Of a stretch of DNA of 28,576 nucleotides, positions 4,242 to 17,782 are shown piece after piece. The DNA is taken from positions 1-28,576 of the forward strand of contig PUMO01000174.1 of assembly GCA_003551405.1 (NCBI GenBank). Reading direction: 5' to 3'. How positions within the stretch are numbered: the first letter of the stretch is position 1; every line of letters starts with the position of its first letter. Below the pieces are notes generated by a model. The model saw only the letters and a program-made list of their open reading frames with translations, searched no databases and was not told the DNA's origin. The position numbers were made by a program, and so were the translations under genes. This DNA is from Mollicutes bacterium. Lineage in GTDB: Bacteria; Bacillota_I; Bacilli_A; Izemoplasmatales; Izemoplasmataceae.

Positions 4242-4841
4242 ATGGAAAAAATTTTTTCGATACCGATGTTTCGCTCGAAAATATCTAAGCCATACCACTA
4301 CCGAGAAAATGAAATTGTTTGTACGGAAAGTAGTTATTGTAGTCAAGTTGGTTTTATTATCAAAGGGGAACTTGAACTTATTCACTACACCCTTCATGGT
4401 GATGAAGTGACGTTGGCGACGCTTAAGGAAAATAATATGTTTGGTGATTTTTTAGTGTTCACTGACCAGCCTTTTTATCCTGGGACCCTTGTTGTAAAAA
4501 AAGCAGCGGTGATTCGTTTTTTAGACCGAGACAAATTAAATGCTTTATTGCGCGAAAGCGAACAGTTTCGCCAATTATTTCTTACCCATATCAGTCAAAA
4601 AGCAATGACGATGAACCGGCAGAATAAATTATTGCTTCAACCGACCATTCGTGAAAAAGTGCATTACTATATAGCCAGAGAAGCCACTACGTATAAACCG
4701 AAAGTTCGTTATAAAAACAAAACGGCCCTAGCAAAAACAATGAATGTTCAAAGACCCTCTTTGGTTAGAGAACTCAAAAAAATGAAGGCCGAAGGCGTCA
4801 TCGATTATGATGCGTCCTATTTATGGTTTGTCCAACGATAA
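4242..4841 (+). CDS. Crp/Fnr family transcriptional regulator (paralog 1)
   Basis: cNMP-binding-like beta-barrel (VGFIIKGEL...NMFGDFLVF...YPGTLV) and C-terminal HTH ALAKTMNVQRPSLVRELKKM. Confidence 0.92.
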   Translation: MEKIFSIPMFRSKISKPYHYRENEIVCTESSYCSQVGFIIKGELELIHYTLHGDEVTLATLKENNMFGDFLVFTDQPFYPGTLVVKKAAVIRFLDRDKLNALLRESEQFRQLFLTHISQKAMTMNRQNKLLLQPTIREKVHYYIAREATTYKPKVRYKNKTALAKTMNVQRPSLVRELKKMKAEGVIDYDASYLWFVQR

Positions 4842-4846
4842 TAAGT

Positions 4847-4872
4847 AAGGCTGTGTTACACAGTCTTTTTTT
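4847..4872 (+). terminator. Intrinsic terminator after regulator 1
   Basis: AAGGCTGTG-TTA-CACAGTCTT followed by a T run. Confidence 0.75.
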
Positions 4873-4889
4873 ATGGAGTCTTCAACGGT

Positions 4890-4918
4890 TTGACACATCA
4901 TGTAAGCGCTTCTATACT
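4890..4918 (+). promoter_or_regulatory. SigmaA-type promoter for hydCBA operon 1
   Basis: TTGACA (4890-4895), 17 bp spacer, TATACT (4913-4918). Confidence 0.8.
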
Positions 4919-4965
4919 GAAACATAGGAAAGATTTCAATCATAATATAGAAAAGAGGTGTTTCA

Positions 4966-5421
4966 GTGTTAGAAAGTATTTTAAGCAAATATCCTAAAGA
5001 ACAAGACATGCTGATTGAAATTTTACTCGATGTGCAAAATCAAAAGACTGATCAATATCTAAGCGAAGCGGAAATTGAACAGATTGCATCCTATTTGTCG
5101 CTTCCTACCGCACATGTTAGCAGTGCTGTAAGTTTTTACACATTTTTTTCAACACAAAGGCGCGGCGAACATGTTATTCAGGTGTGTAAGGATGTCCCCT
5201 GCTATCTTAATGATAGCGACAATTTGGTTGATACCATTCAAAAACAACTGGGCATAGGGATGCATGAAACGACTGAAGACGGTATGTTCACATTAGAACC
5301 GACAAGTTGTCTCGGAATATGCGATGGTGCGCCGGCCATGCGGATTGGTGAACACACCTACACCAAGCTAAACAAGGACAGGGTGACGGCACTACTTGCT
5401 GAATATAGGGGGAAACGTTGA
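4966..5421 (+). CDS. hydC: [FeFe]-hydrogenase gamma subunit (NuoE/HydC-like, [2Fe-2S]), operon 1
   Basis: VSFYTFF, QVCKDVPCYL...SCLGICDGAP (C-x4-C...C-x3-C). GTG start after GAGGTG. Confidence 0.9.
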   Translation: MLESILSKYPKEQDMLIEILLDVQNQKTDQYLSEAEIEQIASYLSLPTAHVSSAVSFYTFFSTQRRGEHVIQVCKDVPCYLNDSDNLVDTIQKQLGIGMHETTEDGMFTLEPTSCLGICDGAPAMRIGEHTYTKLNKDRVTALLAEYRGKR

Positions 5422-6686
5422 TGGAACAAAAACTACTTACCAAACACATCCCGGGTATGGATCCTATGAATATTCAAGCGTATCTTGATGTGGAAGGCTA
5501 TCAGTCATTTTTTAAGGCATTTAAAACACAGCCGCTTGACATTATCGGTGATATTGAAAAATCCAAATTGCGCGGACGCGGTGGTGCTGCTTTTCCAGTG
5601 CACATCAAAATGATGTCAATGGCTAAACAAAAAGAAACCACACGTTATATCATTTGCAATGCGGATGAAGGTGAACCTGGAAATTTTAAAGATCGTTATT
5701 TGATGGAAAATAATCCACACCAGTTATTGGAAGGCATGTTGATTGCGGCGTATGCAACGCGCGCAAATAAAGGGTACATTTATATACGAGGAGAATTTGA
5801 TACACCCATTAAGATTATGCATGAAGCCATTAGGCAGGCTAAAGCACACGGTTTGCTTGGAACCAACATTCAGGGAAGTGGCTTTGATTTTGATCTTGAA
5901 ATAAGAAGTGGGGCCGGATCATATGTTTGCGGTGAAGAATTTGCGCTGATTGAGTCCATCGAAGGTAAATCCGGGCGCACACGAGTCAAACCCCCTTTCC
6001 CGACTGATGTGGGTCTCTTTGGCAAACCAACACTTATCAATAATGTCGAAACGTTTTCCAATCTTCCATGGATTCTTGCCATGGGAGGTGAGGCGTTTGC
6101 CTCCATTGGGACAGAATCTTCTACAGGCACAAAACTCGTGTCTGTTTCAGGCAATGTAAAACATCCAGGTGTCTATGAAGTGCCCTTTGGCGTCCCGATT
6201 CGTGATGTCATTGATACACTTGGGGGTGGCACACAAAACGCTCAAAAAATTGGCATGGTCCAACTAAGTGGCGCAAGTGGTCCGATCATTCCGGAATATA
6301 TGCTTGATTTGACCATCGATTTTGACCGTTTTGAAGACTTTGATTCTAAAACCGGAGCCGGTGCCATCATTGTCATGGATGATCAAAAAGATATGTTTAA
6401 TATTTTAAAACGGATTTCGGATTTCTTCGAACATGAGTCTTGTGGAAAATGTACACCATGTCGTGAGGGCAATGTCCATATGAGCAAATTGTTGAATAAA
6501 TTCCTGCAAAGCGATGCGACTGAAAAAGATTTGATGAACTTGGAGTCTTTATCGCGCGTCATGCATCAAACGTCATTGTGCGGGCTCGGACAAAGTGCTC
6601 CAACCGCAGTCCTTTCAACACTGAAGTATTTCCGTGACACGTATTTTGACCGGATAGAACATCCGCAAGAAGGGGGGCTTGCTTAA
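5421..6686 (+). CDS. hydB: [FeFe]-hydrogenase beta subunit, short NuoF-like form (FMN/NADH plus one [4Fe-4S]); predicted non-bifurcating type
   Basis: LRGRGGAAFP, CNADEGEPGNFKDR, GAGSYVCGEE, HESCGKCTPCREG...CGLG. No N-terminal thioredoxin-like domain and no C-terminal ferredoxin. ATG overlaps the hydC stop (TGATG). Confidence 0.9.
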   Translation: MEQKLLTKHIPGMDPMNIQAYLDVEGYQSFFKAFKTQPLDIIGDIEKSKLRGRGGAAFPVHIKMMSMAKQKETTRYIICNADEGEPGNFKDRYLMENNPHQLLEGMLIAAYATRANKGYIYIRGEFDTPIKIMHEAIRQAKAHGLLGTNIQGSGFDFDLEIRSGAGSYVCGEEFALIESIEGKSGRTRVKPPFPTDVGLFGKPTLINNVETFSNLPWILAMGGEAFASIGTESSTGTKLVSVSGNVKHPGVYEVPFGVPIRDVIDTLGGGTQNAQKIGMVQLSGASGPIIPEYMLDLTIDFDRFEDFDSKTGAGAIIVMDDQKDMFNILKRISDFFEHESCGKCTPCREGNVHMSKLLNKFLQSDATEKDLMNLESLSRVMHQTSLCGLGQSAPTAVLSTLKYFRDTYFDRIEHPQEGGLA

Positions 6687-8398
6687 TGCCTACAATTACA
6701 ATAAATAATCAAAAGATTGAGGCTAAAGAAGGTCAAACCATCTTAGAAGTTGCTAAAGATCATCATATAGACATTCCGACGCTTTGTCATTTTCCCGATT
6801 TGGATGTCCAATCAGATTGCCGTATTTGTATGAGTGAAATCGTCGGACAGAAAAAATTGGCACCATCATGTTCTACGCCCGTTAAAGAAGGCATGGAAAT
6901 CAAAACCAATTCACAGCGTGTATATAATGCTAGAAAAACCATTACTGAATTGCTTCTGAGCAATCATGATACCAACTGTACTGCATGTGAGCGCAATATG
7001 AATTGTGAACTCCAAACGCTTGCGGACACACTTGGAATTGATGAGAATCGTTTTGAAAACATTTTAGAGCATGAACCAATTGACGACAATAACCCTTCAA
7101 TAACCCGCAATGCGGATCGCTGTATTAAGTGTGGGCGTTGTATTGAAGTATGTAAAAATGTCCAGGGCATTCACGTGCTTGATTATATGAATCGCTCCCA
7201 TGACACCAAGGTTGCGCCGGCCCATGGCAAATTTTTAAATGATCAAGTGTGTACCTATTGTGGTCAGTGTGCCAATGTATGTCCCGTCGCCAGCATTACT
7301 GAAAAGAGTGATCTTGAAAAAGTGACGCACGCCATTCATGATGAAACTAAACATGTCATCGTTCAAACCGCCCCTGCCACCCGTGTCTCACTCGGTGAAA
7401 CACTTGGTATGGACAGCGGTTCCATTGTGACCGGTCAAATGGTCGCAGCGCTCAGACGCGTTGGGTTTGATAAAGTCTTCGACACAGATTTCACAGCTGA
7501 TTTAACCATTATGGAAGAAGGTCATGAATTATTATCACGCGTTAAAGAGGGCGGAAAACTCCCCATGATTACCAGCTGTTGTCCAGGATGGGTCAATTAT
7601 GCCGAACAGAAGAATCCCGATATGCTTGATCACTTATCGACTGCGAAAAGTCCCCAACAAATGTTTGGCGCGTTAGCCAAAACATATTACGCTGAAAAAG
7701 AGCATATTGATCCAAATAATGTTTATGTTGTTTCGATTATGCCTTGTACAGCGAAAAAATTTGAAGCCGCTCGTGAGGAAATGCAAGTTCATAAGGAAAC
7801 GGCGGATGTTGATGCTGTCTTAACCACACGCGAACTGGGTAAAATGATTAAACGTGCTGGTGTGAATTTCAAAAACATTGGTGAGGAATCTTATGATGCA
7901 CCATTTGGCATCACCTCAGGTGCTGGCGCTATTTTTGGCGCAACAGGTGGTGTCATGGAAGCAGCTTTGCGCACAGTCAGTGAAGTTGTTAATGAAAAGC
8001 CGCTTGAGAAACTTGATTTTGAAGATATCCGTGGCATGGAGGGCATCAAGGAAGCCAGCGTGACGCTTGGTGAGAACACATTTAAAGTTGCGGTTGCACA
8101 CACCCTTTCCAATGCTCAAAAAGTTCTTGATGATATTAAAGCGGGTGTTTCACCCTATGCCTTCATTGAAGTGATGGCCTGTCCCGGTGGTTGCATTGGC
8201 GGGGGTGGTCAGCCTTATACCACAACCAATGCTAAACGCCAAGAACGCATAGATGCCATCTATAACGTTGATACAGCCATGAAACTAAGAAAGTCACACG
8301 AAAATCCTGCCGTTAATACGTTATATGAAGAATACTTGAGTGAGCCACTTTCTAAACGCGCACATGATTTACTTCACACGCATTATAAACCACGCTAA
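6686..8398 (+). CDS. hydA: [FeFe]-hydrogenase catalytic alpha subunit (group A, M3-type FeS arm), operon 1, 570 aa
   Basis: [2Fe-2S] (LCH...CRIC...SC), HDTNCTACERNMNC, CIKCGRC and CTYCGQC. H-cluster motifs TSCCPGW, MPCTAKKFE, EVMACPGGCIGGGGQP. Confidence 0.96.
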   Translation: MPTITINNQKIEAKEGQTILEVAKDHHIDIPTLCHFPDLDVQSDCRICMSEIVGQKKLAPSCSTPVKEGMEIKTNSQRVYNARKTITELLLSNHDTNCTACERNMNCELQTLADTLGIDENRFENILEHEPIDDNNPSITRNADRCIKCGRCIEVCKNVQGIHVLDYMNRSHDTKVAPAHGKFLNDQVCTYCGQCANVCPVASITEKSDLEKVTHAIHDETKHVIVQTAPATRVSLGETLGMDSGSIVTGQMVAALRRVGFDKVFDTDFTADLTIMEEGHELLSRVKEGGKLPMITSCCPGWVNYAEQKNPDMLDHLSTAKSPQQMFGALAKTYYAEKEHIDPNNVYVVSIMPCTAKKFEAAREEMQVHKETADVDAVLTTRELGKMIKRAGVNFKNIGEESYDAPFGITSGAGAIFGATGGVMEAALRTVSEVVNEKPLEKLDFEDIRGMEGIKEASVTLGENTFKVAVAHTLSNAQKVLDDIKAGVSPYAFIEVMACPGGCIGGGGQPYTTTNAKRQERIDAIYNVDTAMKLRKSHENPAVNTLYEEYLSEPLSKRAHDLLHTHYKPR

Positions 8399-8401
8399 AA
8401 C

Positions 8402-8440
8402 AAAAGCCAGAATGCCTTTTTCAGGTCATTCTGGCTTTTT
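8402..8440. terminator. Bidirectional terminator between hydA (operon 1) and regulator 2
   Basis: AAAAGCCAGAATG...CATTCTGGCTTTT stem with A and T flanks. Confidence 0.85.
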
Positions 8441-9051
8441 TATATTTGACACGTTTTATTATTGAGCGCATAGGTTTTATTTGACCGAATAATGAGGCCT
8501 TCCTTGATTAACGCATTCATTGTGCGTGATAAGGAAGGTCTTTGCACGTTGAGTTGTGTGGCAAGTGTCTGAATGGATTGAATGGTAATGTGATCGGTTT
8601 GTTGGATGCGCATTTGTTGTTCTAAATGCATAATGATTTTTTCTCTTAATGAAGGCTGTTGAAGTACTTTATTGCTGGTAAATATATTTTGAGCCTTGTC
8701 ACTTAACGTTTCAATAAATGCATCTCTGAATTGCTTATCGTGATTTATGGCCGCTTGTAAATCTTTGCGCGCTAAATAGGACACTTTTGTGTCCGCCTGT
8801 GCAATGAGATGGCCTATGTAAAACGGTGTGTTTGATAAGATGAGCACCTCACCAAACGTTTCGCCGGCTTTGATTATGTTCAACGTTGACATTTCTCCGT
8901 TATTGTTATAGTGGATGAGCGCCAATGACCCTGTAATGACATATCCTATATAATCACACCGCTCCCCTTCGGAACTGATGATGTATCCTTTAGGGTAATG
9001 ACACGGCAACATCCAGGAAACGTTTTCAGTATTTTCGTGAAACAATTTCAT
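8440..9051 (-). CDS. Crp/Fnr family transcriptional regulator (paralog 2)
   Basis: EGERCDYIGYVITGSL...ETFGEVLIL...FYIGHLIA and HTH TLATQLNVQRPSLSRTMNAL. ATG 9051 follows GAGGTG. Confidence 0.92.
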   Translation of the reverse strand: MKLFHENTENVSWMLPCHYPKGYIISSEGERCDYIGYVITGSLALIHYNNNGEMSTLNIIKAGETFGEVLILSNTPFYIGHLIAQADTKVSYLARKDLQAAINHDKQFRDAFIETLSDKAQNIFTSNKVLQQPSLREKIIMHLEQQMRIQQTDHITIQSIQTLATQLNVQRPSLSRTMNALIKEGLIIRSNKTYALNNKTCQI

Positions 9052-9057
9052 CACCTC

Positions 9058-9164: not shown

Positions 9165-9674
9165 ATGTCATCACTATTCGATATGGAATCTTTTGATCAA
9201 GATAAGGTTCAATTACTGGATGACTATATTGGCAATTATGTTGCGCAAAATAATTTAGAAGCGCTGATACCCGCGCTTTATAAAGCGCAAACGTTGTTTG
9301 GCTATTTACCAGCTGCCCTGCAACGACATATCGCAGAAAAACTTGATTTGCCCAGTGCGCATGTGAACGGTGTGGTTTCGTTTTATGCGTATTTCAGTGA
9401 AGTTCCCAAAGGAAAATATGCGATATCGGTTTGTACGGGGACGGCATGTCATGTAAAAGGTGCTTCCGATGTGTTAAATAAAGCAAGAGAAGTGGCTGGT
9501 GCACATGGTGAAACAATGAGTGAGGACGGTCTTTTCAGTGTCAATGATGTCAGGTGTATTGGTGCGTGTGGTCTCGCGCCTGTTGTGACCATTAATGGCA
9601 AAGTCCACGGAAAAATCGATGCAAAAGATATGGAAAAAATTATTCGAAGCACCAAGGAGACTGAAAATGCTTGA
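9165..9674 (+). CDS. hydC: [FeFe]-hydrogenase gamma subunit (NuoE/HydC-like), operon 2
   Basis: LYKAQTLFGYLP, VVSFYAYF, VCTGTACHVKG...RCIGACGLAP. Confidence 0.93.
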   Translation: MSSLFDMESFDQDKVQLLDDYIGNYVAQNNLEALIPALYKAQTLFGYLPAALQRHIAEKLDLPSAHVNGVVSFYAYFSEVPKGKYAISVCTGTACHVKGASDVLNKAREVAGAHGETMSEDGLFSVNDVRCIGACGLAPVVTINGKVHGKIDAKDMEKIIRSTKETENA

Positions 9675-11484
9675 ATCATTTGAGGCGCTAAAGAATTGGA
9701 AATCAACGATTAAAGAACAGTCCACGCACCGCTTGGAAATACTTGTTTGTGCCGGAACATCATGTTTATCTTCACAAGCGGATGCACTGCTTGAAATGTT
9801 CACCCATGAAATTCATGAATACTCACTGGATGCTGAGGTCGTTGTGACCCCCACAGGCTGTTTTGGATTTTGTGGACAGGGTCCGATTTTAAAAATCGAA
9901 CCGGACAATGTCACGTACGTGCAAGTCGGCGCTGATGATGTGAAGACGATTGTGGATGAACATTTGAATGCTGGACGCATTGTTGAACACTTACTATATG
10001 ACCCACCCGGTCAGAAACGTTCCACCAGTGAAGCGGGCATGCCTTTTTATCAAAAACAACACCGTGTTGCGCTTAAGAAATGTGGTGTCATTGATCCCAA
10101 GAACATTGAACACGCCATTAAGCATAGCGCTTATGAAGCCTTAGGAACGGTGTTGCACACCATGGATAGTGATGACGTGATTGACATCATTAAACAAAGT
10201 GGTCTACGCGGACGCGGTGGTGGCGGTTTTCCCACCGGTTTGAAATGGCAATTTACCAGCACCACTCAAGCAGATGAAAAATATGTGGTATGTAATGCGG
10301 ATGAAGGGGACCCTGGTGCATTTATGGACCGAAGCATCATGGAAGGAGACCCCCATACAATCTTAGAAGCCATGGCAATCAATGGTTATGCTGTTGGGGC
10401 TAACAAGGGGTTTATCTATATTCGCGCTGAATATGAATTGGCGACTCAAAGATTATTTAAGGCGCTTTCGGATGCACGCAAACATGGTCTGCTCGGTCAA
10501 AATATTTTAGGCAGCGGGTTTGATTTTGACATTGAAATCAAACTTGGTGCAGGTGCTTTTGTGTGTGGTGAGGAGACGGCGCTCATTCATTCCATGGAAG
10601 GATACCGCGGAGAACCAACAACAAAACCACCGTTTCCTAGTGATGTTGGTTTTAGAACCTTGCCTACCAATGTTAATAATGTTGAAACGTATGCGAACAT
10701 TCCTTCAATCATTTTAAAAGGTCAACGCTGGTTTCAATCGATTGGGACTAAAAATTCTAAAGGAACCAAAGTATTTGCACTGGCTGGCGATGTTGTAAAT
10801 ATTGGTCTCGTTGAAGTCCCCATGGGGATTACTGTTAGAGAAATTGTAGAAGATATCGGTGGTGGTGTTGATGGCGATAAAAAGTTAAAAGCCGTTCAAA
10901 TTGGCGGGCCTTCAGGCGGTGTCATTACGGGGGATGATTTGGATTTACCCATTGACTACGACTCACTGCAATCCGCAGGTGCGATGATGGGAAGCGGTGG
11001 ACTCATTGTCATGGATGACGATACCGACATGGTTGAAATTGCGAAGTTTTATTTGGAATTCACTGAAGATGAATCATGCGGAAAATGCACACCATGTCGG
11101 ATTGGGACCAAGCGCATTCACGAAATTTTGCATCGTCTAACCGATATGGAAGGAACGCCTGAAGATTTGGAATTGCTTGAAGCACTTTGTAACAATGTCA
11201 AAAACACGTCACTGTGTGGACTCGGTCAATCGGCGCCCAATCCGGTATTGTCAACCATGCATCACTTTAAAAATGAGTATGAGGATTACGCCTACCGACG
11301 TAAAAAAACCAGTTATTCAATCGATGCGGACAAATGCATTGGATGCACACGCTGCAAAAAAGTGTGTCCGGTTGACTGTATCAGCGGTTCGGTCAAAACC
11401 GTACATGTCATTGATGAATCTGCCTGCATTGCATGTGGAGCATGCGATGATGCATGTCCCGTCGATGCAATCATTAGACCTTGA
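9667..11484 (+). CDS. hydB: [FeFe]-hydrogenase beta subunit, long form (N-terminal [2Fe-2S], FMN/NADH, [4Fe-4S], C-terminal 2x[4Fe-4S]); bifurcating-type signatures, 605 aa
   Basis: VCAGTSC...GCFGFCGQGP, LRGRGGGGFP, CNADEGDPGAFMDR, GAGAFVCGEET, GGPSGG, ESCGKCTPC, CIGCTRCKKVCP and CIACGACDDACP. Start moved to ATG 9667 (AAGGAG RBS). Confidence 0.93.
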   Translation: MLESFEALKNWKSTIKEQSTHRLEILVCAGTSCLSSQADALLEMFTHEIHEYSLDAEVVVTPTGCFGFCGQGPILKIEPDNVTYVQVGADDVKTIVDEHLNAGRIVEHLLYDPPGQKRSTSEAGMPFYQKQHRVALKKCGVIDPKNIEHAIKHSAYEALGTVLHTMDSDDVIDIIKQSGLRGRGGGGFPTGLKWQFTSTTQADEKYVVCNADEGDPGAFMDRSIMEGDPHTILEAMAINGYAVGANKGFIYIRAEYELATQRLFKALSDARKHGLLGQNILGSGFDFDIEIKLGAGAFVCGEETALIHSMEGYRGEPTTKPPFPSDVGFRTLPTNVNNVETYANIPSIILKGQRWFQSIGTKNSKGTKVFALAGDVVNIGLVEVPMGITVREIVEDIGGGVDGDKKLKAVQIGGPSGGVITGDDLDLPIDYDSLQSAGAMMGSGGLIVMDDDTDMVEIAKFYLEFTEDESCGKCTPCRIGTKRIHEILHRLTDMEGTPEDLELLEALCNNVKNTSLCGLGQSAPNPVLSTMHHFKNEYEDYAYRRKKTSYSIDADKCIGCTRCKKVCPVDCISGSVKTVHVIDESACIACGACDDACPVDAIIRP

Positions 11485-11494
11485 GGAGGCCACT

Positions 11495-13249
11495 ATGGGT
11501 AAAGAATATTCAAGTGTAAGAATCACCATTAACAATATCACTTTAGAAGTTGATCACGGTAGTACTGTCCTGGACGCCGCCAAGCAAGCCGGCATCAATA
11601 TTCCAACACTTTGTCATTTGGACTTGCATGATCTTGATGCCATCAATCAAAGTGCCAATTGTCGCGTATGTTTAGTGGAAAATGAAACACGTGGCACTTT
11701 GGTCCCATCATGTGCTGAAATTGTGCAGGACGGGATGCGTATTCAAACGGATACCAAAAAGGCGGTCCAAGGCAGGCGAACGTCGATGGAACTGCTCCTC
11801 AGCAATCATCCGAAAGAGTGTTTAACGTGTGTGAAAAATCTTGATTGTGACCTTCAAGAGCTTTCCAACTCCATGAACATTAAAGATATCCCTTATCAAG
11901 GAGAAATGATGAATCATCCAGTTGATGATTCCAGTGGAGCCATCATTAAAGATCCCAACAAATGTGTCATGTGTCGCCGGTGTATGACAATGTGTGATGA
12001 GGTGCAAACCGTTGGCGTACTTTCTCCACTTAAACGCGGATTTGATGTATCAGTGGGCACAGCATTTCATTTGGATTTAAGTGAAACAAGCTGTACGTAT
12101 TGTGGACAATGTGTCAGCGTGTGTCCCACCGCTGCACTTGCTGAACATCCGCATGTACCCAATGTATGGCGCCGGTTGAATAATCCTAACCGTCACACAG
12201 TGGTACAGATTGCGCCGGCTGTACGTGTCGCCATTGGCGAAATGTTTGGGTATGAAGCGGGTGAAATTTCAACCGGAAAACTGATCGCGGCGTTGAGGCG
12301 ACTGGGCTTCGATGGTGTTTTTGACACCAAGTTTGGTGCGGATTTAACCATTGTTGAAGAAGCCAATGAATTTCTTGAGCGCTTAAATAATGATGGGCCC
12401 CTCCCCCTTTTAACATCGTGTTGCCCTGCATGGGTTAATTTCATTGAGCAGAAATATCCGGATTTGCTTGATATTCCATCAAGCTGTAAAAGCCCACAAA
12501 GCATGGTTGGCAGTTTATCAAAAACATACTATGCAAAGACCATGGGCGTTGACCCACAAAATATTCGCATGGTAGCTGTGATGCCGTGTGTGGCCAAAAA
12601 AGCAGAAGCGGCCCGTGATGAGCTGGCATATGGTGAGCAAAGAGATGTTGATTATGTGATTACCACACGTGAACTTGGGGCCATGATTAAAGAAGCTGCG
12701 ATTGACTTTAATAACTTGCCGGATGACAGCTTTGATGATATTTTGGGTGAATCAACCGGTGCCTCAAGTATTTTTGGCACCACCGGTGGCGTTGTTGAAG
12801 CAACCGCGCGTACAGCCTATGAGAACGTGACAGGCAAGACACTTGAAAATGGTGAATTTGAAACCATTCGATGGATGGAAGGCTTGCGTAAAGCGTCGGT
12901 TACTTTAAACGGCCGTACCATCAACATTGCCGTCGCCCATGAACTCAAAAACGCACGAAAACTACTTGATAGCATCCGTTCAGGTGACAGTGACCTTGAT
13001 CTGATTGAAATCATGGCGTGCCCCGGTGGGTGTATTGGTGGCGGTGGTCAGCCGTTTCACCATGGTGATATCAATGTGCTGAATAAACGTCGTGAGGCTT
13101 TATATACACTTGATAAAAACAATGTGCGTAGAAAAAGTCATGAAAATGAACAAGTTAAAACGTTATATCAGAAGTTTCTTGGCGATATTGGTGGCCAAAA
13201 AGCCCATGAACTTTTACATACTTCTTATTCTAAAAAACTACGTATATAA
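11495..13249 (+). CDS. hydA: [FeFe]-hydrogenase catalytic alpha subunit (group A, M3-type), operon 2, 584 aa
   Basis: GAGGAGG RBS then ATG 11495 (MGKEYSS...). HPKECLTCVKNLDC, CVMCRRC and CTYCGQC. H-cluster motifs TSCCPAW, MPCVAKKAE, EIMACPGGCIGGGGQP. Confidence 0.96.
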   Translation: MGKEYSSVRITINNITLEVDHGSTVLDAAKQAGINIPTLCHLDLHDLDAINQSANCRVCLVENETRGTLVPSCAEIVQDGMRIQTDTKKAVQGRRTSMELLLSNHPKECLTCVKNLDCDLQELSNSMNIKDIPYQGEMMNHPVDDSSGAIIKDPNKCVMCRRCMTMCDEVQTVGVLSPLKRGFDVSVGTAFHLDLSETSCTYCGQCVSVCPTAALAEHPHVPNVWRRLNNPNRHTVVQIAPAVRVAIGEMFGYEAGEISTGKLIAALRRLGFDGVFDTKFGADLTIVEEANEFLERLNNDGPLPLLTSCCPAWVNFIEQKYPDLLDIPSSCKSPQSMVGSLSKTYYAKTMGVDPQNIRMVAVMPCVAKKAEAARDELAYGEQRDVDYVITTRELGAMIKEAAIDFNNLPDDSFDDILGESTGASSIFGTTGGVVEATARTAYENVTGKTLENGEFETIRWMEGLRKASVTLNGRTINIAVAHELKNARKLLDSIRSGDSDLDLIEIMACPGGCIGGGGQPFHHGDINVLNKRREALYTLDKNNVRRKSHENEQVKTLYQKFLGDIGGQKAHELLHTSYSKKLRI

Positions 13250-13297: not shown

Positions 13298-14233
13298 CTA
13301 ATGGAGTTGATCGTAGTAATATTTCAGTGTATTTGCGGAATGTTTGAGTGACGCTTTTTCAGATTCGTCGAGTGAGAGCTCAACAATATGGTGGATGCCA
13401 TCTTTGTTGATGACGGCGGGCAGACCAATGTATATATGTGCACAATCGTATTCACCTTGGTTTAACACACTGAGTGGAAGAATGCGGTTTTCATTATTGA
13501 TAATTGCGGATGTGATTCTAACCAAGCTTATACCAATTCCGTAATAGGTCGCGCTTTTGCGTGCAATAATTTCACCGGCGGCGTTTTTGACGCGCTTGGC
13601 AATGTGGTCCAAATCTTCAAAGTTGATCGCGTGCATGCTTTTGATAACATCTTTGATGGGCTTGGCCCCAACATAAGCATTAGACCATACCACAAATTCA
13701 CTTTCACCGTGCTCGCCCAATATATATGCATGCACATTGCGCGTATCAATGTTAATTTGGTGGCCTATTTCATAGCGAAGTCTGGCGGTATCGAGACTGG
13801 TGCCGCTTCCGATGACTTTTTCTTTAGGAAGTTGTGATGCATCATAGACAATTTGTGTCATGATATCCACTGGATTGGACGCGACCAGTAAAATCCCTTT
13901 AAAACCACTTTCCATAATACTATGGGTGATGCTTCGCATAATGTCTGCGTTTCGATCCAACAAATCCAGACGGCTTTCATCTGGCTTTTGATTGACCCCT
14001 GCGGTAATGACCACTAAGTCGGCATCCTTACAGTCGCTATAGGTCCCTGCATATATGTTCATATGACGCGGTGAAAAGGGGATACCATGATTTAAATCCA
14101 TCGCTTCGCCCTCAGCACGTGAATCATCAATGTCAATTAATACCAAATCAGATACCACACCTTGGTTTAAGAGTGCATAGGCATAAGACATGCCCACAAG
14201 GCCAGTACCAATAATAACAACTTTTGATTTCAT
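13298..14233 (-). CDS. ldh: L-lactate dehydrogenase, 311 aa
   Basis: IIGTGLVG Rossmann motif, specificity loop GVNQKPDESRLDL (Gln, LDH type), ASNPVD, GTSLDTARLR, GEHG, ATYYGIG. Start ATG 14233 after AGGAGG. Confidence 0.95.
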   Translation of the reverse strand: MKSKVVIIGTGLVGMSYAYALLNQGVVSDLVLIDIDDSRAEGEAMDLNHGIPFSPRHMNIYAGTYSDCKDADLVVITAGVNQKPDESRLDLLDRNADIMRSITHSIMESGFKGILLVASNPVDIMTQIVYDASQLPKEKVIGSGTSLDTARLRYEIGHQINIDTRNVHAYILGEHGESEFVVWSNAYVGAKPIKDVIKSMHAINFEDLDHIAKRVKNAAGEIIARKSATYYGIGISLVRITSAIINNENRILPLSVLNQGEYDCAHIYIGLPAVINKDGIHHIVELSLDESEKASLKHSANTLKYYYDQLH

Positions 14234-14460
14234 AATCGCCTCCTTGAAACTCATTGTATCAACTGAGCTTTAAAGGGAGGGCGCATGTGCACTAGATTAC
14301 AAATAATCAGTCAATTATCCATTCCTTCATGCTTTTTTATGCAAAGAAAGCCTATTTTTTAGCGCGGGTCCGAATGACAACATGGTTTATGTTTGCTTAT
14401 AAATTGTTAAGTGTTATGGGATATGATACACTTTGATTAACAAACAATTGGAGGGGTATT

Positions 14461-15213
14461 ATGGAACGTAAAGTTGTATTTTGGAAACGTTTTGCGTATA
14501 AAGAATCAGGCTATAAAGTCCTTGAAATTTGTGATGACGGGACGGCCTTATTGCGCACATTTGAAAATCAAAAGGATGAAGACTGGCTCTATAAAGAAGT
14601 AGACCAGGATGAAACCCCGCTTCAAGGGAAAATTCTTATCGAACATGTCGATTTTGGTGAAGACGGCAAGATTAAAGAAGATGCATTGCCAAACAAAGTT
14701 AAGACGATGGAAACCTATGAACTCAAAGACTTCGCATCAGCGCGTGACCGTGTGCAAACCCGTCAAAATTTAAGTCTTTCTACGCTTAAGGAAGACTATC
14801 ATTCTATTCTTGTGCTTGAGCCTTCAAGCATTCCAGAACACATTAAGAATTTATTGCCGGATACTAGATTCCCCATTATTAAATTCCGTTATGAGAACGA
14901 TAAAGGCGTGTTGCTTCGCAAAGAAAAACCGAGACGGCTTGAAACGCGGTTCATCCCAGAATTAAACGAAACCATTTATTTTTACTTGGATACGGGTCAA
15001 GAAAATTTAACAACCACAGGTGACAATATCTTTTCTATCGATACAAAGCACTGTGAACCGGGATTCTGTGAAACGGACTTTGATGCGTACATTCAAAACA
15101 TGGTGAAAGATATGAAAGCGAATTTAAAGCAATATCATGATTTATTTGTCAGACAACGTAACCGTATGGCGATGCTTGATACCGATGTCATCGGGGATTT
15201 GTATCCTCGCTAA
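14461..15213 (+). CDS. Hypothetical soluble protein, 250 aa
   Basis: Long ORF with GGAGGGG RBS and a downstream terminator; no family recognised. Confidence 0.8.
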   Translation: MERKVVFWKRFAYKESGYKVLEICDDGTALLRTFENQKDEDWLYKEVDQDETPLQGKILIEHVDFGEDGKIKEDALPNKVKTMETYELKDFASARDRVQTRQNLSLSTLKEDYHSILVLEPSSIPEHIKNLLPDTRFPIIKFRYENDKGVLLRKEKPRRLETRFIPELNETIYFYLDTGQENLTTTGDNIFSIDTKHCEPGFCETDFDAYIQNMVKDMKANLKQYHDLFVRQRNRMAMLDTDVIGDLYPR

Positions 15214-16005: not shown

Positions 16006-16395
16006 ATGCGTAAAAAACTATTGTTAAGTTTAAGTGTATTTTTAGTGTTGTTCTCTTTGGCCGCTTGTGGCAACGGGGATGATGAAGTGGAAGACACCCC
16101 CGATGATGAACTCCGTGAGTTTACACTTGAAGAGCTCTCCGAATATGATGGTGAAGATGGGGCCGATGCCTATGTTGCTGTTGATGGGTATGTTTATGAT
16201 ATGACAGATTCAGCCCAATGGACGGAAGGATCGCATCAAGGCCAAGTTCAAGCGGGACAAGATTTAACAGAAGAAATTGACAACAATGATCGTCATGGTC
16301 GTGAAATGCTTGATCGTGTGCCACGTATTGGCATCTTGGTAGAATCATCGGATGAAGAAAATTCTGATAACGATGATGACAATGGTGGTTATTAA
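16006..16395 (+). CDS. Cytochrome b5-like heme/steroid-binding domain lipoprotein
   Basis: Lipobox LAAC (Cys21). FTLEELSEYDG...AYVAVDGYVYD..., W..GSH...AGQDLT...HG with two His as candidate heme ligands. Confidence 0.88.
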   Translation: MRKKLLLSLSVFLVLFSLAACGNGDDEVEDTPDDELREFTLEELSEYDGEDGADAYVAVDGYVYDMTDSAQWTEGSHQGQVQAGQDLTEEIDNNDRHGREMLDRVPRIGILVESSDEENSDNDDDNGGY

Positions 16396-16402
16396 TCTTT
16401 TG

Positions 16403-16436
16403 AACGGTGATGCAAACGATATTGCTCACCGTTTTC
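16403..16436 (+). terminator. Intercistronic hairpin (weak terminator or mRNA stabiliser)
   Basis: AACGGTGA...TCACCGTT stem with only a short T tail, between the cyt b5 gene and the ferric-reductase-like gene. Confidence 0.5.
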
Positions 16437-16459
16437 AGTCTTTACGATAGGAGGACATT

Positions 16460-17782
16460 ATGAAATTTATCAAAGAATCGTATAAAGGCATTGTTTTTCT
16501 TTTGGTATTGATGGTTGTCAATGCTCTGCTTTGGTTAACTGCAGAACCGATCATTGATCAGTCACTTCAGAGCACCATCGCGCAAGTATTGGGCGCAACC
16601 CTATTACTTGGGTTTACAATGGTGTTTTTCCTCTCCACAAAAAATCGTGTGGTGAACTGGCTCTTTGGTGGGCTTGAAAATGTCTATTTTGCGCACCGGT
16701 GGTTAGCGATGTTCTCTTTTCTATTTATATTTGTACATGGTCAAACCACGAATTTGATTATTCAGTATTACCGAGATGTTCCCTTGAGCGCTGCGTCAAT
16801 GGGACCATGGGCAAGGAATTTATTTATTGGGCTCATTGTGATGGCGTTACTTGCTAAATATATGAAATATGAGCATTGGCGACTGATTCACCGTTTCATG
16901 GTCGTGCCGTATGTGCTTGCTTTTTATCATGCGGTGTTTATCAGTTCATATGATTTGGTGTCACTGAGTCCGCTTGGCATTTGGACAATGTCCTTGGGTG
17001 TCGTTGGGGTCAGTTCAAGTGTTTATATGATTGCGATTTATCGCAAAACTGCTTTCAAACATAAAGGCAGCGTCGTCTCTAAAAATATTCTGGCCGGTGA
17101 TGTGACTGAGATAGAGATCGATTTAGGTGAAACGCTTGATTTTAAGACCGGTCAATTCGTTTTTATTAAAATTAACAAATCGCCATTTGATGGTGTGCCC
17201 CATCCCTTTTCAGTTTCTGGTGGTAAAGATACCCGTATCTTTTTTACCATTAAGGCACTGGGGGACTATACAGAAGATTTAAAAACACACCTTGAAGAGG
17301 GTGACACCGTAGAAGTAACTCGTGCGTATGGTCACATGACGTTTGATGATTATCCTTCGCCTCAGGTGTGGATTGCCGGCGGCATCGGTATAACGCCGTT
17401 TTTGTCCCATGTTCGAAACATGGATCCACCTAAACAAAAAATTACGCTTTATTACTCAGTAAAAGAAAAAAGTGAGGCGGTTCATCTCGATTTATTTCGT
17501 CGAATGGATCAACAATATGAAAATTTCAATTTTGTTTTTTCTGAGAGCGACAAGGATGGGTTTTTCAGTGTGAACGATTTTGATTTGAGTGATGCCCCCC
17601 ATGTGATGATGTGTGGTCCGCTTCCCATGGCTAAAGCGCTTAAAAAACAATTCGCACGAATTGATGATCACCAGGCCTTGACCTATGAAGCGTTCAGTTT
17701 TACTGGCACCCTGGTAGAAGACACGGTTGCTTATTTTAAACGGTTAATCAAAAAATTCAGAATGAGATTTTCACAACAATAG
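16460..17782 (+). CDS. Ferric reductase-like transmembrane flavocytochrome (bacterial NOX-like) with FAD/NAD(P)H-binding domain
   Basis: TM His pairs H-x13-H (AHRW...FVHG) and H-x12-H (IHRF...FYHA); GQFVF, HPFS, KALGDYT, IAGGIGITPF, MCGP, terminal EAFSF. Confidence 0.9.
   Translation: MKFIKESYKGIVFLLVLMVVNALLWLTAEPIIDQSLQSTIAQVLGATLLLGFTMVFFLSTKNRVVNWLFGGLENVYFAHRWLAMFSFLFIFVHGQTTNLIIQYYRDVPLSAASMGPWARNLFIGLIVMALLAKYMKYEHWRLIHRFMVVPYVLAFYHAVFISSYDLVSLSPLGIWTMSLGVVGVSSSVYMIAIYRKTAFKHKGSVVSKNILAGDVTEIEIDLGETLDFKTGQFVFIKINKSPFDGVPHPFSVSGGKDTRIFFTIKALGDYTEDLKTHLEEGDTVEVTRAYGHMTFDDYPSPQVWIAGGIGITPFLSHVRNMDPPKQKITLYYSVKEKSEAVHLDLFRRMDQQYENFNFVFSESDKDGFFSVNDFDLSDAPHVMMCGPLPMAKALKKQFARIDDHQALTYEAFSFTGTLVEDTVAYFKRLIKKFRMRFSQQ

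What the first reader, a model, noticed from the sequence alone, without database searches (positions are those of the whole stretch)
11017..11325. Bifurcating-type HydB that has lost the whole Zn-hinge ligand set
Seen: HydB2 reads DDDTDMV where canonical HydB has D/E-D-T-C-M-V (Asp codon GAC at 11026-11028). The linker before the C-terminal ferredoxin reads EYEDYAYRRKKTSYSID instead of the usual EY..H....CP...C. The changes are in frame and at two separate sites, so they are not a single sequencing slip. Known: HydABC structures (for example T. maritima) show a Cys3-His metal site here, at the hinge of the mobile C-terminal ferredoxin domain implicated in bifurcation. Inference: either a natural metal-free-hinge variant that tests whether this site is needed for bifurcation, or an enzyme with an altered mechanism.
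Basis: partly seen in the sequence, partly recalled or inferred. Interest (0 to 1): 0.65.

Follow-up and report, generated by a model that had tools for sequence, protein, structure and literature searches.

The report
Zinc-free hinge in bifurcating-type hydrogenase subunit
A hydrogenase flavoprotein subunit (HydB) in this wall-less fermenting bacterium has every domain of the electron-bifurcating type but has lost all four residues that bind the zinc "hinge", as have its orthologues throughout the order, so nature offers a ready test of whether that zinc site matters.

Summary
HydB2 (9667-11484, +) has Asp (GAC 11026-11028) where solved bifurcating HydB/NfnB subunits have the first Zn cysteine. 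Tyr replaces the histidine, and an 8-residue deletion removes the loop carrying the other two cysteines.

It is neither a sequencing slip nor a one-off. All 146 relatives examined (59-98% identical) share Asp, Tyr-Ala and the deletion. All 123 other full-architecture HydBs examined keep Cys/His/Cys/Cys. No substitute Cys or His is conserved nearby.

On trees the Zn-less proteins form one group nested among Zn-bearing HydBs, so I infer a single loss. The group comprises Izemoplasmatales and a few Bacillota. Woesearchaeota lost the site separately.

Nine genomes of the same family also carry a distantly related Zn-bearing paralogue. In five genomes, including this one, the Zn-less protein is the only full-length HydB.

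All other cofactor motifs are intact. HydC and HydA partners, PFOR and Rnf are present, and the AlphaFold model superposes on bifurcating BfuB structures (TM about 0.9).

Best reading (about 0.65): a working NADH + ferredoxin confurcating hydrogenase whose hinge is held by protein contacts instead of Zn. It is a new variant of a known kind. The literature only hints at it ("His missing in 8 of 1558"). Activity is untested.

The parts
9165..9674 (+). hydC2: thioredoxin-like [2Fe-2S] subunit (C1 cluster) of operon 2
   Evidence: PF01257, E 5e-44. The four-Cys pattern is visible in the translation.
9667..11484 (+). hydB2: full-architecture HydB/BfuB (605 aa from ATG 9667; the ORF is open from 9595)
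   Evidence: Pfam hits: 2Fe-2S_thioredx, Complex1_51K, SLBB, NADH_4Fe-4S and 2x Fer4. E 5.8e-215 to 7t2r_B. AF2 mean pLDDT 93.7, TM 0.87-0.95 to BfuB structures.
11026..11028 (+). Asp454 codon (GAC) at the position of the first Zn-ligand Cys
   Evidence: Asp in 146/146 clade members versus Cys in 123/123 Zn-type HydBs. It lies immediately before helix 455-468 of the model.
11287..11316 (+). Shortened Zn-free linker Tyr541-Tyr550 (Tyr at the His position, Lys at the second Cys position, 8-residue deletion that removes the third Cys)
   Evidence: Tyr541 and Ala542 146/146, deletion 146/146, Arg/Lys544 138/146 where Zn-type proteins have Asp/Glu. pLDDT for block 541-550 is 89.
11335..11481 (+). 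C-terminal 2x[4Fe-4S] ferredoxin-like domain (B3/B4), both Cys motifs intact
   Evidence: Fer4, Fer4_21 and related hits at residues 551-602; translation.
11495..13249 (+). hydA2: [FeFe]-hydrogenase catalytic subunit of operon 2
   Evidence: Fe_hyd_lg_C E 4e-98, Fe_hyd_SSU, Fer2_4 and NADH-G_4Fe-4S_3. H-cluster motifs TSCCP, MPC..KK and MACPGGC are in the translation. Start and RBS.
4966..8398 (+). Operon 1 (hydC1 4966-5421, hydB1 5418-6686, hydA1 6686-8398). HydB1 is the short NuoF-only type, without the N- and C-terminal cluster domains
   Evidence: Pfam. HydB1 is 45% identical to HydB2 over the core only.

Best explanation
HydB2 is the NADH/FMN subunit of a HydABC (group A3, Bfu-type) [FeFe] hydrogenase. 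[quoted passage not shown] The Cys and His ligands became invariant Asp454 and Tyr541, and the Cys-bearing loop was deleted. I infer that protein contacts now hold the junction: Asp454 as N-cap of helix 455-468, possibly hydrogen-bonded to Tyr541 or salt-bridged to Arg544. I also infer that the shortened, unstapled linker leaves a tether of similar free length, about 8 residues against about 5 beyond the last Zn ligand in canonical enzymes. I further infer that the enzyme still couples NADH and reduced ferredoxin (from PFOR) to H2 production through the FMN/B1/C1 site, with B3/B4 as the ferredoxin port. Shown here: ligand loss, clade-wide conservation, nesting within Zn-type HydBs, intact other cofactor motifs, partner subunits and fold. 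Inferred: the replacement contacts and the retained bifurcation.
For: All four ligands are absent and there is an 8-residue gap relative to solved HydB/NfnB chains. Asp454, Tyr541, Ala542 and the deletion are invariant in 146 homologues at 59-98% identity, while 123 Zn-type HydBs keep C/H/C/C; that pattern indicates purifying selection on the new state. The Zn-less rows form one clade nested among Zn-type HydBs (SH-aLRT 98). With the trait columns dropped they still sit in a 98-supported clade alongside four Zn-type Bacillota rows. The B5, B1, B3/B4 and C1 motifs and the H-cluster motifs are intact. The AF2 model is confident, including the linker, and matches bifurcating BfuB structures over the full length. 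In five family genomes at 84-99% completeness it is the only full-length HydB. PFOR and RnfC are present in this genome. The literature places the bifurcation site at FMN/B1/C1 and describes the B2 site as not an essential part of it (PMC12018979, PMC11829005).
Against: No enzyme of this clade has been assayed. Furlan et al. (PMC9499530) proposed that the Zn site acts as the hinge for the domain movement needed for bifurcation; if so, its loss could alter coupling. Coexistence with a Zn-type paralogue in nine relatives could mean the two enzymes do different jobs. Schut et al. (PMC9304861) noted that the His is absent from non-bifurcating homologues.
Confidence: 0.65

Rival explanations
1. Loss of the Zn hinge changed the mechanism. 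The C-terminal domain is no longer gated, so the enzyme is non-bifurcating: either a plain NADH- or ferredoxin-linked hydrogenase, or one that uses both donors without tight coupling. It would be specialised relative to the Zn-bearing paralogue.
For: Nine related genomes keep a separate Zn-type HydABC next to the Zn-less one, which suggests a division of labour. The linker is 8 residues shorter and its charge is reversed at position 544. The His is reported absent from non-bifurcating homologues (PMC9304861). The Zn site was proposed as the hinge for the movement (PMC9499530).
Against: The known non-bifurcating HydBs lack the B3/B4 and B5 domains (PMC9304861, PMC7311640), and HydB2 keeps both under strong conservation. 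This genome already has a short, NADH-only type HydB1, so a second NADH-only enzyme would be redundant. In five genomes the Zn-less protein is the only full-length HydB.
Confidence: 0.22
2. The site still binds a metal through non-classical ligands (Asp454 carboxylate, Tyr541 phenolate, water or backbone). It would then be a remodelled metal site, not a lost one.
For: Asp and Tyr are both possible metal ligands, and both are invariant exactly at former ligand positions.
Against: Only two candidate ligands remain. The loop that supplied the other two is deleted, and the former Cys position now holds Lys/Arg in 136 of 146 sequences. No other Cys or His is conserved nearby. Asp454 is sufficiently explained as a helix N-cap.
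Confidence: 0.06
3. Artefact or decaying gene: a sequencing or assembly error, or a pseudogene in a reduced genome.
For: The genome is a fragmented MAG (222 contigs, 84% complete).
Against: The frame is open with all motifs intact. The same state is found in 146 independent sequences, including closed genomes.
Confidence: 0.01

Closest known systems
Electron-bifurcating [FeFe]-hydrogenase HydABC of Acetobacterium woodii, Thermoanaerobacter kivui and Thermotoga maritima (PDB 7q4v/8a5e, 8a6t, 7p5h)
   Same: Same three-subunit operon and the same HydB domain order (Trx-like [2Fe-2S], FMN/NADH core, SLBB, four-helix bundle with [4Fe-4S], 2x[4Fe-4S] tail). 45-54% identity and TM 0.87-0.91.
   Different: Those enzymes bind one Zn per HydB through Cys3His at the core-to-tail junction (PMC9499530, PMC10021017). 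HydB2 has none of the four ligands and a linker 8 residues shorter.
Other Bfu-family B subunits (A. mobile NiFe-HydB 7t2r, S. ovata Stn/NfnB 8oh5, C. saccharolyticus NfnB 9bov/9bp5, T. sibiricus NfnB 9n5u, WOR BfuB 9mqx)
   Same: Same BfuB fold and cofactor layout. 7t2r_B is the best sequence hit (E 5.8e-215).
   Different: All are reported with the B2 site occupied (PMC11829005, PMC12018979). Some vary at B5 (Zn instead of [2Fe-2S]), but none lacks B2.
Short non-bifurcating HydB of Syntrophus aciditrophicus / Syntrophomonas wolfei type (PMC7311640), and HydB1 of this window
   Same: They also lack the Zn ligands (HydB1 has Asp at the Cys position).
   Different: They lack the N-terminal [2Fe-2S] and C-terminal 2x[4Fe-4S] domains altogether; HydB2 keeps both.
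Zn-bearing HydB paralogue of Izemoplasmataceae (for example locus L144 5076-6866)
   Same: Same family of organisms and same full architecture.
   Different: Only 53-55% identical and in a different clade. It keeps Cys/His/Cys/Cys. Its operon carries two HATPase-domain genes and a more divergent HydA.

Membership tests
BfuB / HydB of the electron-bifurcating Bfu (HydABC) family (Schut et al. 2022) | NuoF-like core with FMN/NADH site and B1 [4Fe-4S] | tested here: met
   PF01512 E 5e-47 and PF10589 E 3e-34. The ESCGKC.PC ... LCGLG ligands are invariant.
BfuB / HydB of the electron-bifurcating Bfu (HydABC) family (Schut et al. 2022) | N-terminal thioredoxin-like [2Fe-2S] domain (B5) | tested here: met
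   PF01257 at residues 15-98. The C-x4-C ... C-x3-C pattern is in the translation.
BfuB / HydB of the electron-bifurcating Bfu (HydABC) family (Schut et al. 2022) | C-terminal 2x[4Fe-4S] ferredoxin-like domain (B3/B4) | tested here: met
   Fer4 family hits at 551-602; both C..C..C...CP motifs are present.
BfuB / HydB of the electron-bifurcating Bfu (HydABC) family (Schut et al. 2022) | B2 site: Cys3-His (Zn, originally modelled as [2Fe-2S]); the His is reported present in 1550 of 1558 BfuBs | tested here: not met
   Asp, Tyr, Lys and a deletion at the four positions. This feature is near-universal but not used as the family's operational definition, so I file HydB2 as a B2-less variant nested inside the family by descent, not as a canonical member.
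BfuB / HydB of the electron-bifurcating Bfu (HydABC) family (Schut et al. 2022) | Adjacent BfuC ([2Fe-2S] C1) and BfuA (here [FeFe] HydA) partners | tested here: met
   hydC2 and hydA2 flank hydB2.
BfuB / HydB of the electron-bifurcating Bfu (HydABC) family (Schut et al. 2022) | Ferredoxin- and NAD(H)-coupled bifurcating/confurcating activity | not testable with these tools
   This needs an assay of the purified enzyme.
Non-bifurcating short HydB (Syntrophus/Syntrophomonas type) | Absence of the B3/B4 and B5 cluster domains | tested here: not met
   HydB2 has both domains, so it is not of this type. HydB1 in the same window is.

The most novel reading that the evidence does not exclude
The Zn-less HydABC is a mechanistically distinct hydrogenase. 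Removing the metal staple and shortening the linker would change or abolish the gated movement of the ferredoxin-port domain, giving different coupling from the Zn-type paralogue kept by many of the same organisms. Examples are loose or uncoupled NADH/Fd use, or a different direction bias. Zn-site presence would then become a predictor of coupling mode across the Bfu family.
Probability: 0.2. Interest if true: 0.65.

Novelty: new variant of a known kind. Interest (0 to 1): 0.45.

Why it matters
The role of the B2/Zn site in Bfu enzymes is unsettled. It was first modelled as a redox cluster central to bifurcation, then reassigned as Zn and proposed to be a conformational hinge, and it is now often treated as dispensable for redox chemistry. 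I found no mutagenesis of the site in the papers read.

This clade is a natural knock-out of the site that evolution has kept under strong selection in an otherwise complete enzyme. In some genomes a Zn-bearing paralogue sits alongside it as an internal control. Purifying one pair would show directly whether the Zn site is needed for bifurcation or for the domain movement. The result also cautions against using the His/Cys motif alone to predict bifurcation from genomes.

Tried and rejected
- **Representative search.** I searched the 50%-identity representative library to count Zn-less lineages. The query's own clade is hidden behind a Zn-type representative (P0126), so this gives no prevalence figure. 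It did reveal two Woesearchaeota Zn-less sequences.
- **Geometry around Asp454/Tyr541.** I wanted to measure it in the AF2 model, but coordinates are not exposed to the script box. The proposed contacts therefore remain inference.
- **The eight His-less BfuBs of Schut et al.** I searched the supplement for their names and found no mention of Izimaplasma, Tenericutes or Woesearchaeota.
- **Alternative ligands.** I checked for other Cys/His ligands in residues 425-560 and none is conserved. The query's own Cys508, His485/489 and His532/533 occur in 12% or fewer of clade members.
- **Recent duplication.** I considered that the Zn-type paralogue of relatives was a recent duplicate. This is rejected, because it forms a separate, strongly supported clade.
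- **Monophyly without the trait columns.** This is not fully resolved: five subclades, one of them Zn-type, form a polytomy. A single loss is the most parsimonious reading, not a proven one.

Full report
**What is in the window**

Two [FeFe]-hydrogenase operons lie head to tail on the + strand.
- Operon 1 is hydC1 (4966-5421), hydB1 (5418-6686) and hydA1 (6686-8398). HydB1 is 422 aa with a NuoF core only.
- Operon 2 is hydC2 (9165-9674), hydB2 and hydA2 (11495-13249).
- The hydB2 ORF is open from 9595. The likely start is ATG 9667, behind an AAGGAGA ribosome-binding site, giving 605 aa.
- HydB2 has the complete domain series of bifurcating HydB/BfuB subunits: a thioredoxin-like [2Fe-2S] domain, the 51K FMN domain, SLBB, the NADH_4Fe-4S bundle and two Fer4 motifs.
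- The MAG is 1.30 Mb in 222 contigs and 83.6% complete. It holds only these two NuoF-like genes.
- The nearest named relatives are Izemoplasmatales / "Candidatus Izimaplasma".

**Checking the observation**

The Asp codon GAC sits at 11026-11028, which is residue 454 from the 9667 start. HMMER alignments to four solved chains show D-T-C-M-V and EY.AH....C....C in every one: A. mobile NiFe-HydB 7t2r_B, A. woodii HydB 7q4v_B, T. kivui HydB 8a6t_B and T. sibiricus NfnB 9n5u_B. The query has Asp at the first Cys, Tyr at the His, Lys at the second Cys and an 8-residue gap that removes the third Cys.

The literature confirms what this site is:
- It is a Cys3-His Zn site, with ICP-MS giving about 1 Zn per HydB (PMC9499530, PMC10021017).
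- It was proposed as a hinge for the mobile C-terminal domain (PMC9499530).
- It is present in all characterised Bfu members (PMC11829005).

**How widespread the state is**

- Of the 120 best homologue clusters (62-98% identity), 119 share the Zn-less state.
- I pooled these with GTDB species representatives and genomes of the same class. The pool held 146 Zn-less clade members and 123 Zn-type full-architecture HydBs.
- In the clade, Asp454, Tyr541, Ala542 and the 8-residue deletion occur in 146 of 146 sequences. Arg/Lys544 occurs in 138 of 146, where Zn-type proteins have Asp/Glu.
- In the Zn-type set, all four ligands occur in 123 of 123 sequences.
- Between residues 425 and 560 the only conserved Cys or His in the clade are [4Fe-4S] ligands, so there is no replacement ligand set.
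- The state is therefore binary, heritable and under purifying selection. It is not an error.

**Evolution**

- A 122-row tree puts all Zn-less rows except two in one clade (SH-aLRT 98). That clade is sister to Zn-type HydBs of Acidaminobacter, Peptostreptococcaceae and Tissierellales, and is nested deep among Zn-type HydBs of Bacillota, Bacteroidota and others.
- I rebuilt the tree with a mixture model after dropping the trait columns. The Zn-less subclades and those four Zn-type rows form a 98-supported clade whose internal order is unresolved. One loss is the most parsimonious reading but is not proven.
- The clade includes four Bacillota MAGs (Peptoniphilaceae and unclassified; L012, L019, L027, L036), so it is not strictly confined to Izemoplasmatales.
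- Two further Zn-less, full-architecture sequences (P0142, P0162) come from Candidatus Woesearchaeota. They use different replacement residues (Ser at the Cys position) and sit on separate long branches.
- Schut et al. reported the His missing in 8 of 1558 BfuBs without comment (PMC9304861). I found no description of this clade.

**Distribution within the lineage**

- In a sample of 301 genomes of the same class, proteins at 62% identity or more were found only in the window's own order. All those I fetched were Zn-less.
- They occur in 14 of 18 genomes of the family, including the window's genome, and in 3 or 4 of 15 genomes of a sister family. One of these (G278) is judged by identity only.
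- Nine family genomes also carry a Zn-type HydB at 53-55% identity. It belongs to a different, strongly supported clade.
- In an Izimaplasma HR1-sized genome, that paralogue's operon has hydC, two HATPase-domain genes, hydB and a more divergent hydA. The Zn-less operon there is hydC-hydB-hydA, as in the window.
- In G000, G243, G119, G166 and G187 (84-99% complete), the Zn-less protein is the only full-length HydB. In four of these five it is accompanied by a short HydB1-type protein.

**Is it likely to work, and how**

- All Cys motifs for B5, B1, B3, B4 (HydB2) and C1 (HydC2) are intact, as are the H-cluster motifs of HydA2.
- The AlphaFold2 model has mean pLDDT 93.7 and pTM 0.91. The linker block 541-550 scores 89.
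- The model superposes over the full length, C-terminal domain included, on bifurcating BfuB structures:
  - TM (normalised to the query) 0.95 to 9mqx_B
  - TM 0.91 to 8a6t_B, 7q4v_B and 8oh5_B
- In the model Asp454 immediately precedes helix 455-468, and Tyr541 ends helix 535-542.
- From this I infer that Asp454 acts as a helix N-cap, perhaps hydrogen-bonded to Tyr541 or paired with Arg544, so that protein contacts replace the metal staple.
- In Zn-type proteins the metal pins the loop, which leaves about five free residues before the first strand of the ferredoxin domain. In the Zn-less form about eight residues follow Tyr541. The free tether is therefore of similar length, which is also an inference.
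- The genome encodes PFOR and RnfC, so reduced ferredoxin is produced. A confurcating NADH + ferredoxin hydrogenase fits a fermenter of this kind.
- Recent structural work places bifurcation at FMN/B1/C1 and treats B2 as non-essential for electron transfer (PMC12018979, PMC11829005). I therefore put about 0.65 on retained bifurcation with a metal-free junction.

**Rivals**

- The main rival (about 0.2) is that loss of the hinge changed the coupling and that the Zn-less and Zn-type paralogues divide the labour.
  - Evidence for it: the two forms coexist in nine genomes, the His is absent from non-bifurcating homologues, and the hinge proposal itself.
  - Evidence against it: the B3/B4 and B5 domains, whose loss marks the known non-bifurcating forms, are strictly retained. 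This genome already has an NADH-only type HydB1.
- A remodelled Asp/Tyr metal site is unlikely, because only two candidate ligands remain and the loop is deleted.
- An artefact is excluded.

**Verdict**

It is also less singular than supposed, because it characterises a lineage, not one enzyme. It is a new variant of a known kind.

Interest is moderate. The finding gives a clean natural test of an unresolved structural feature of Bfu enzymes. However, losing a non-redox structural Zn site would not greatly surprise specialists, and no functional data exist.

Noticed in passing
window 4966-8398: Operon 1 encodes a short HydB1 (NuoF core only, no N- or C-terminal cluster domains) together with HydC1 and HydA1. 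This is the layout of the NADH-dependent non-bifurcating hydrogenases of Syntrophus/Syntrophomonas. The same short type accompanies the Zn-less HydB in G243, G119 and G166.
   Followed up: partly
window 4242-4841 (+) and 8440-9054 (-): A Crp/Fnr-type regulator (cNMP_binding domain; HTH_Crp_2 also detected in the second one only) sits next to each hydrogenase operon.
   Followed up: no
HydB2 residue 419 (window 10921-10923): In the GGPSGG-x motif, Val is invariant in the Zn-less clade (146/146), whereas 68% of Zn-type HydBs have Cys. This is a second clade-specific substitution and its meaning is unknown.
   Followed up: no
P0142, P0162 (Candidatus Woesearchaeota): Archaeal DPANN HydB-like proteins with the full architecture also lack the Zn ligands, with different replacement residues (Ser at the Cys position). 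The Zn-less lineages found so far all belong to small-genome organisms.
   Followed up: partly
L143 (G145:C2:420000-439999): In one family genome the Zn-type and Zn-less hydB genes lie about 7 kb apart on the same strand (4740-6530 and 13324-15090 of the locus).
   Followed up: no
L144 1770-8580: The Zn-type operon of an Izimaplasma HR1-sized genome contains two HATPase-domain genes and three small ORFs without Pfam hits between hydC and hydB. Its HydA-like protein scores much lower on Fe_hyd_lg_C (208 bits against 334) and shows no Fe_hyd_SSU hit.
   Followed up: no
window 16006-17782: A cytochrome b5-like protein is followed by a ferric-reductase/NOX-like membrane flavoprotein (Ferric_reduct, FAD_binding_8, NAD_binding_1). 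This is unusual for a wall-less fermenter.
   Followed up: no
window 13298-14254 (-): A lactate/malate dehydrogenase gene lies directly downstream of operon 2 on the opposite strand. It offers an alternative NADH sink beside the hydrogenases.
   Followed up: no
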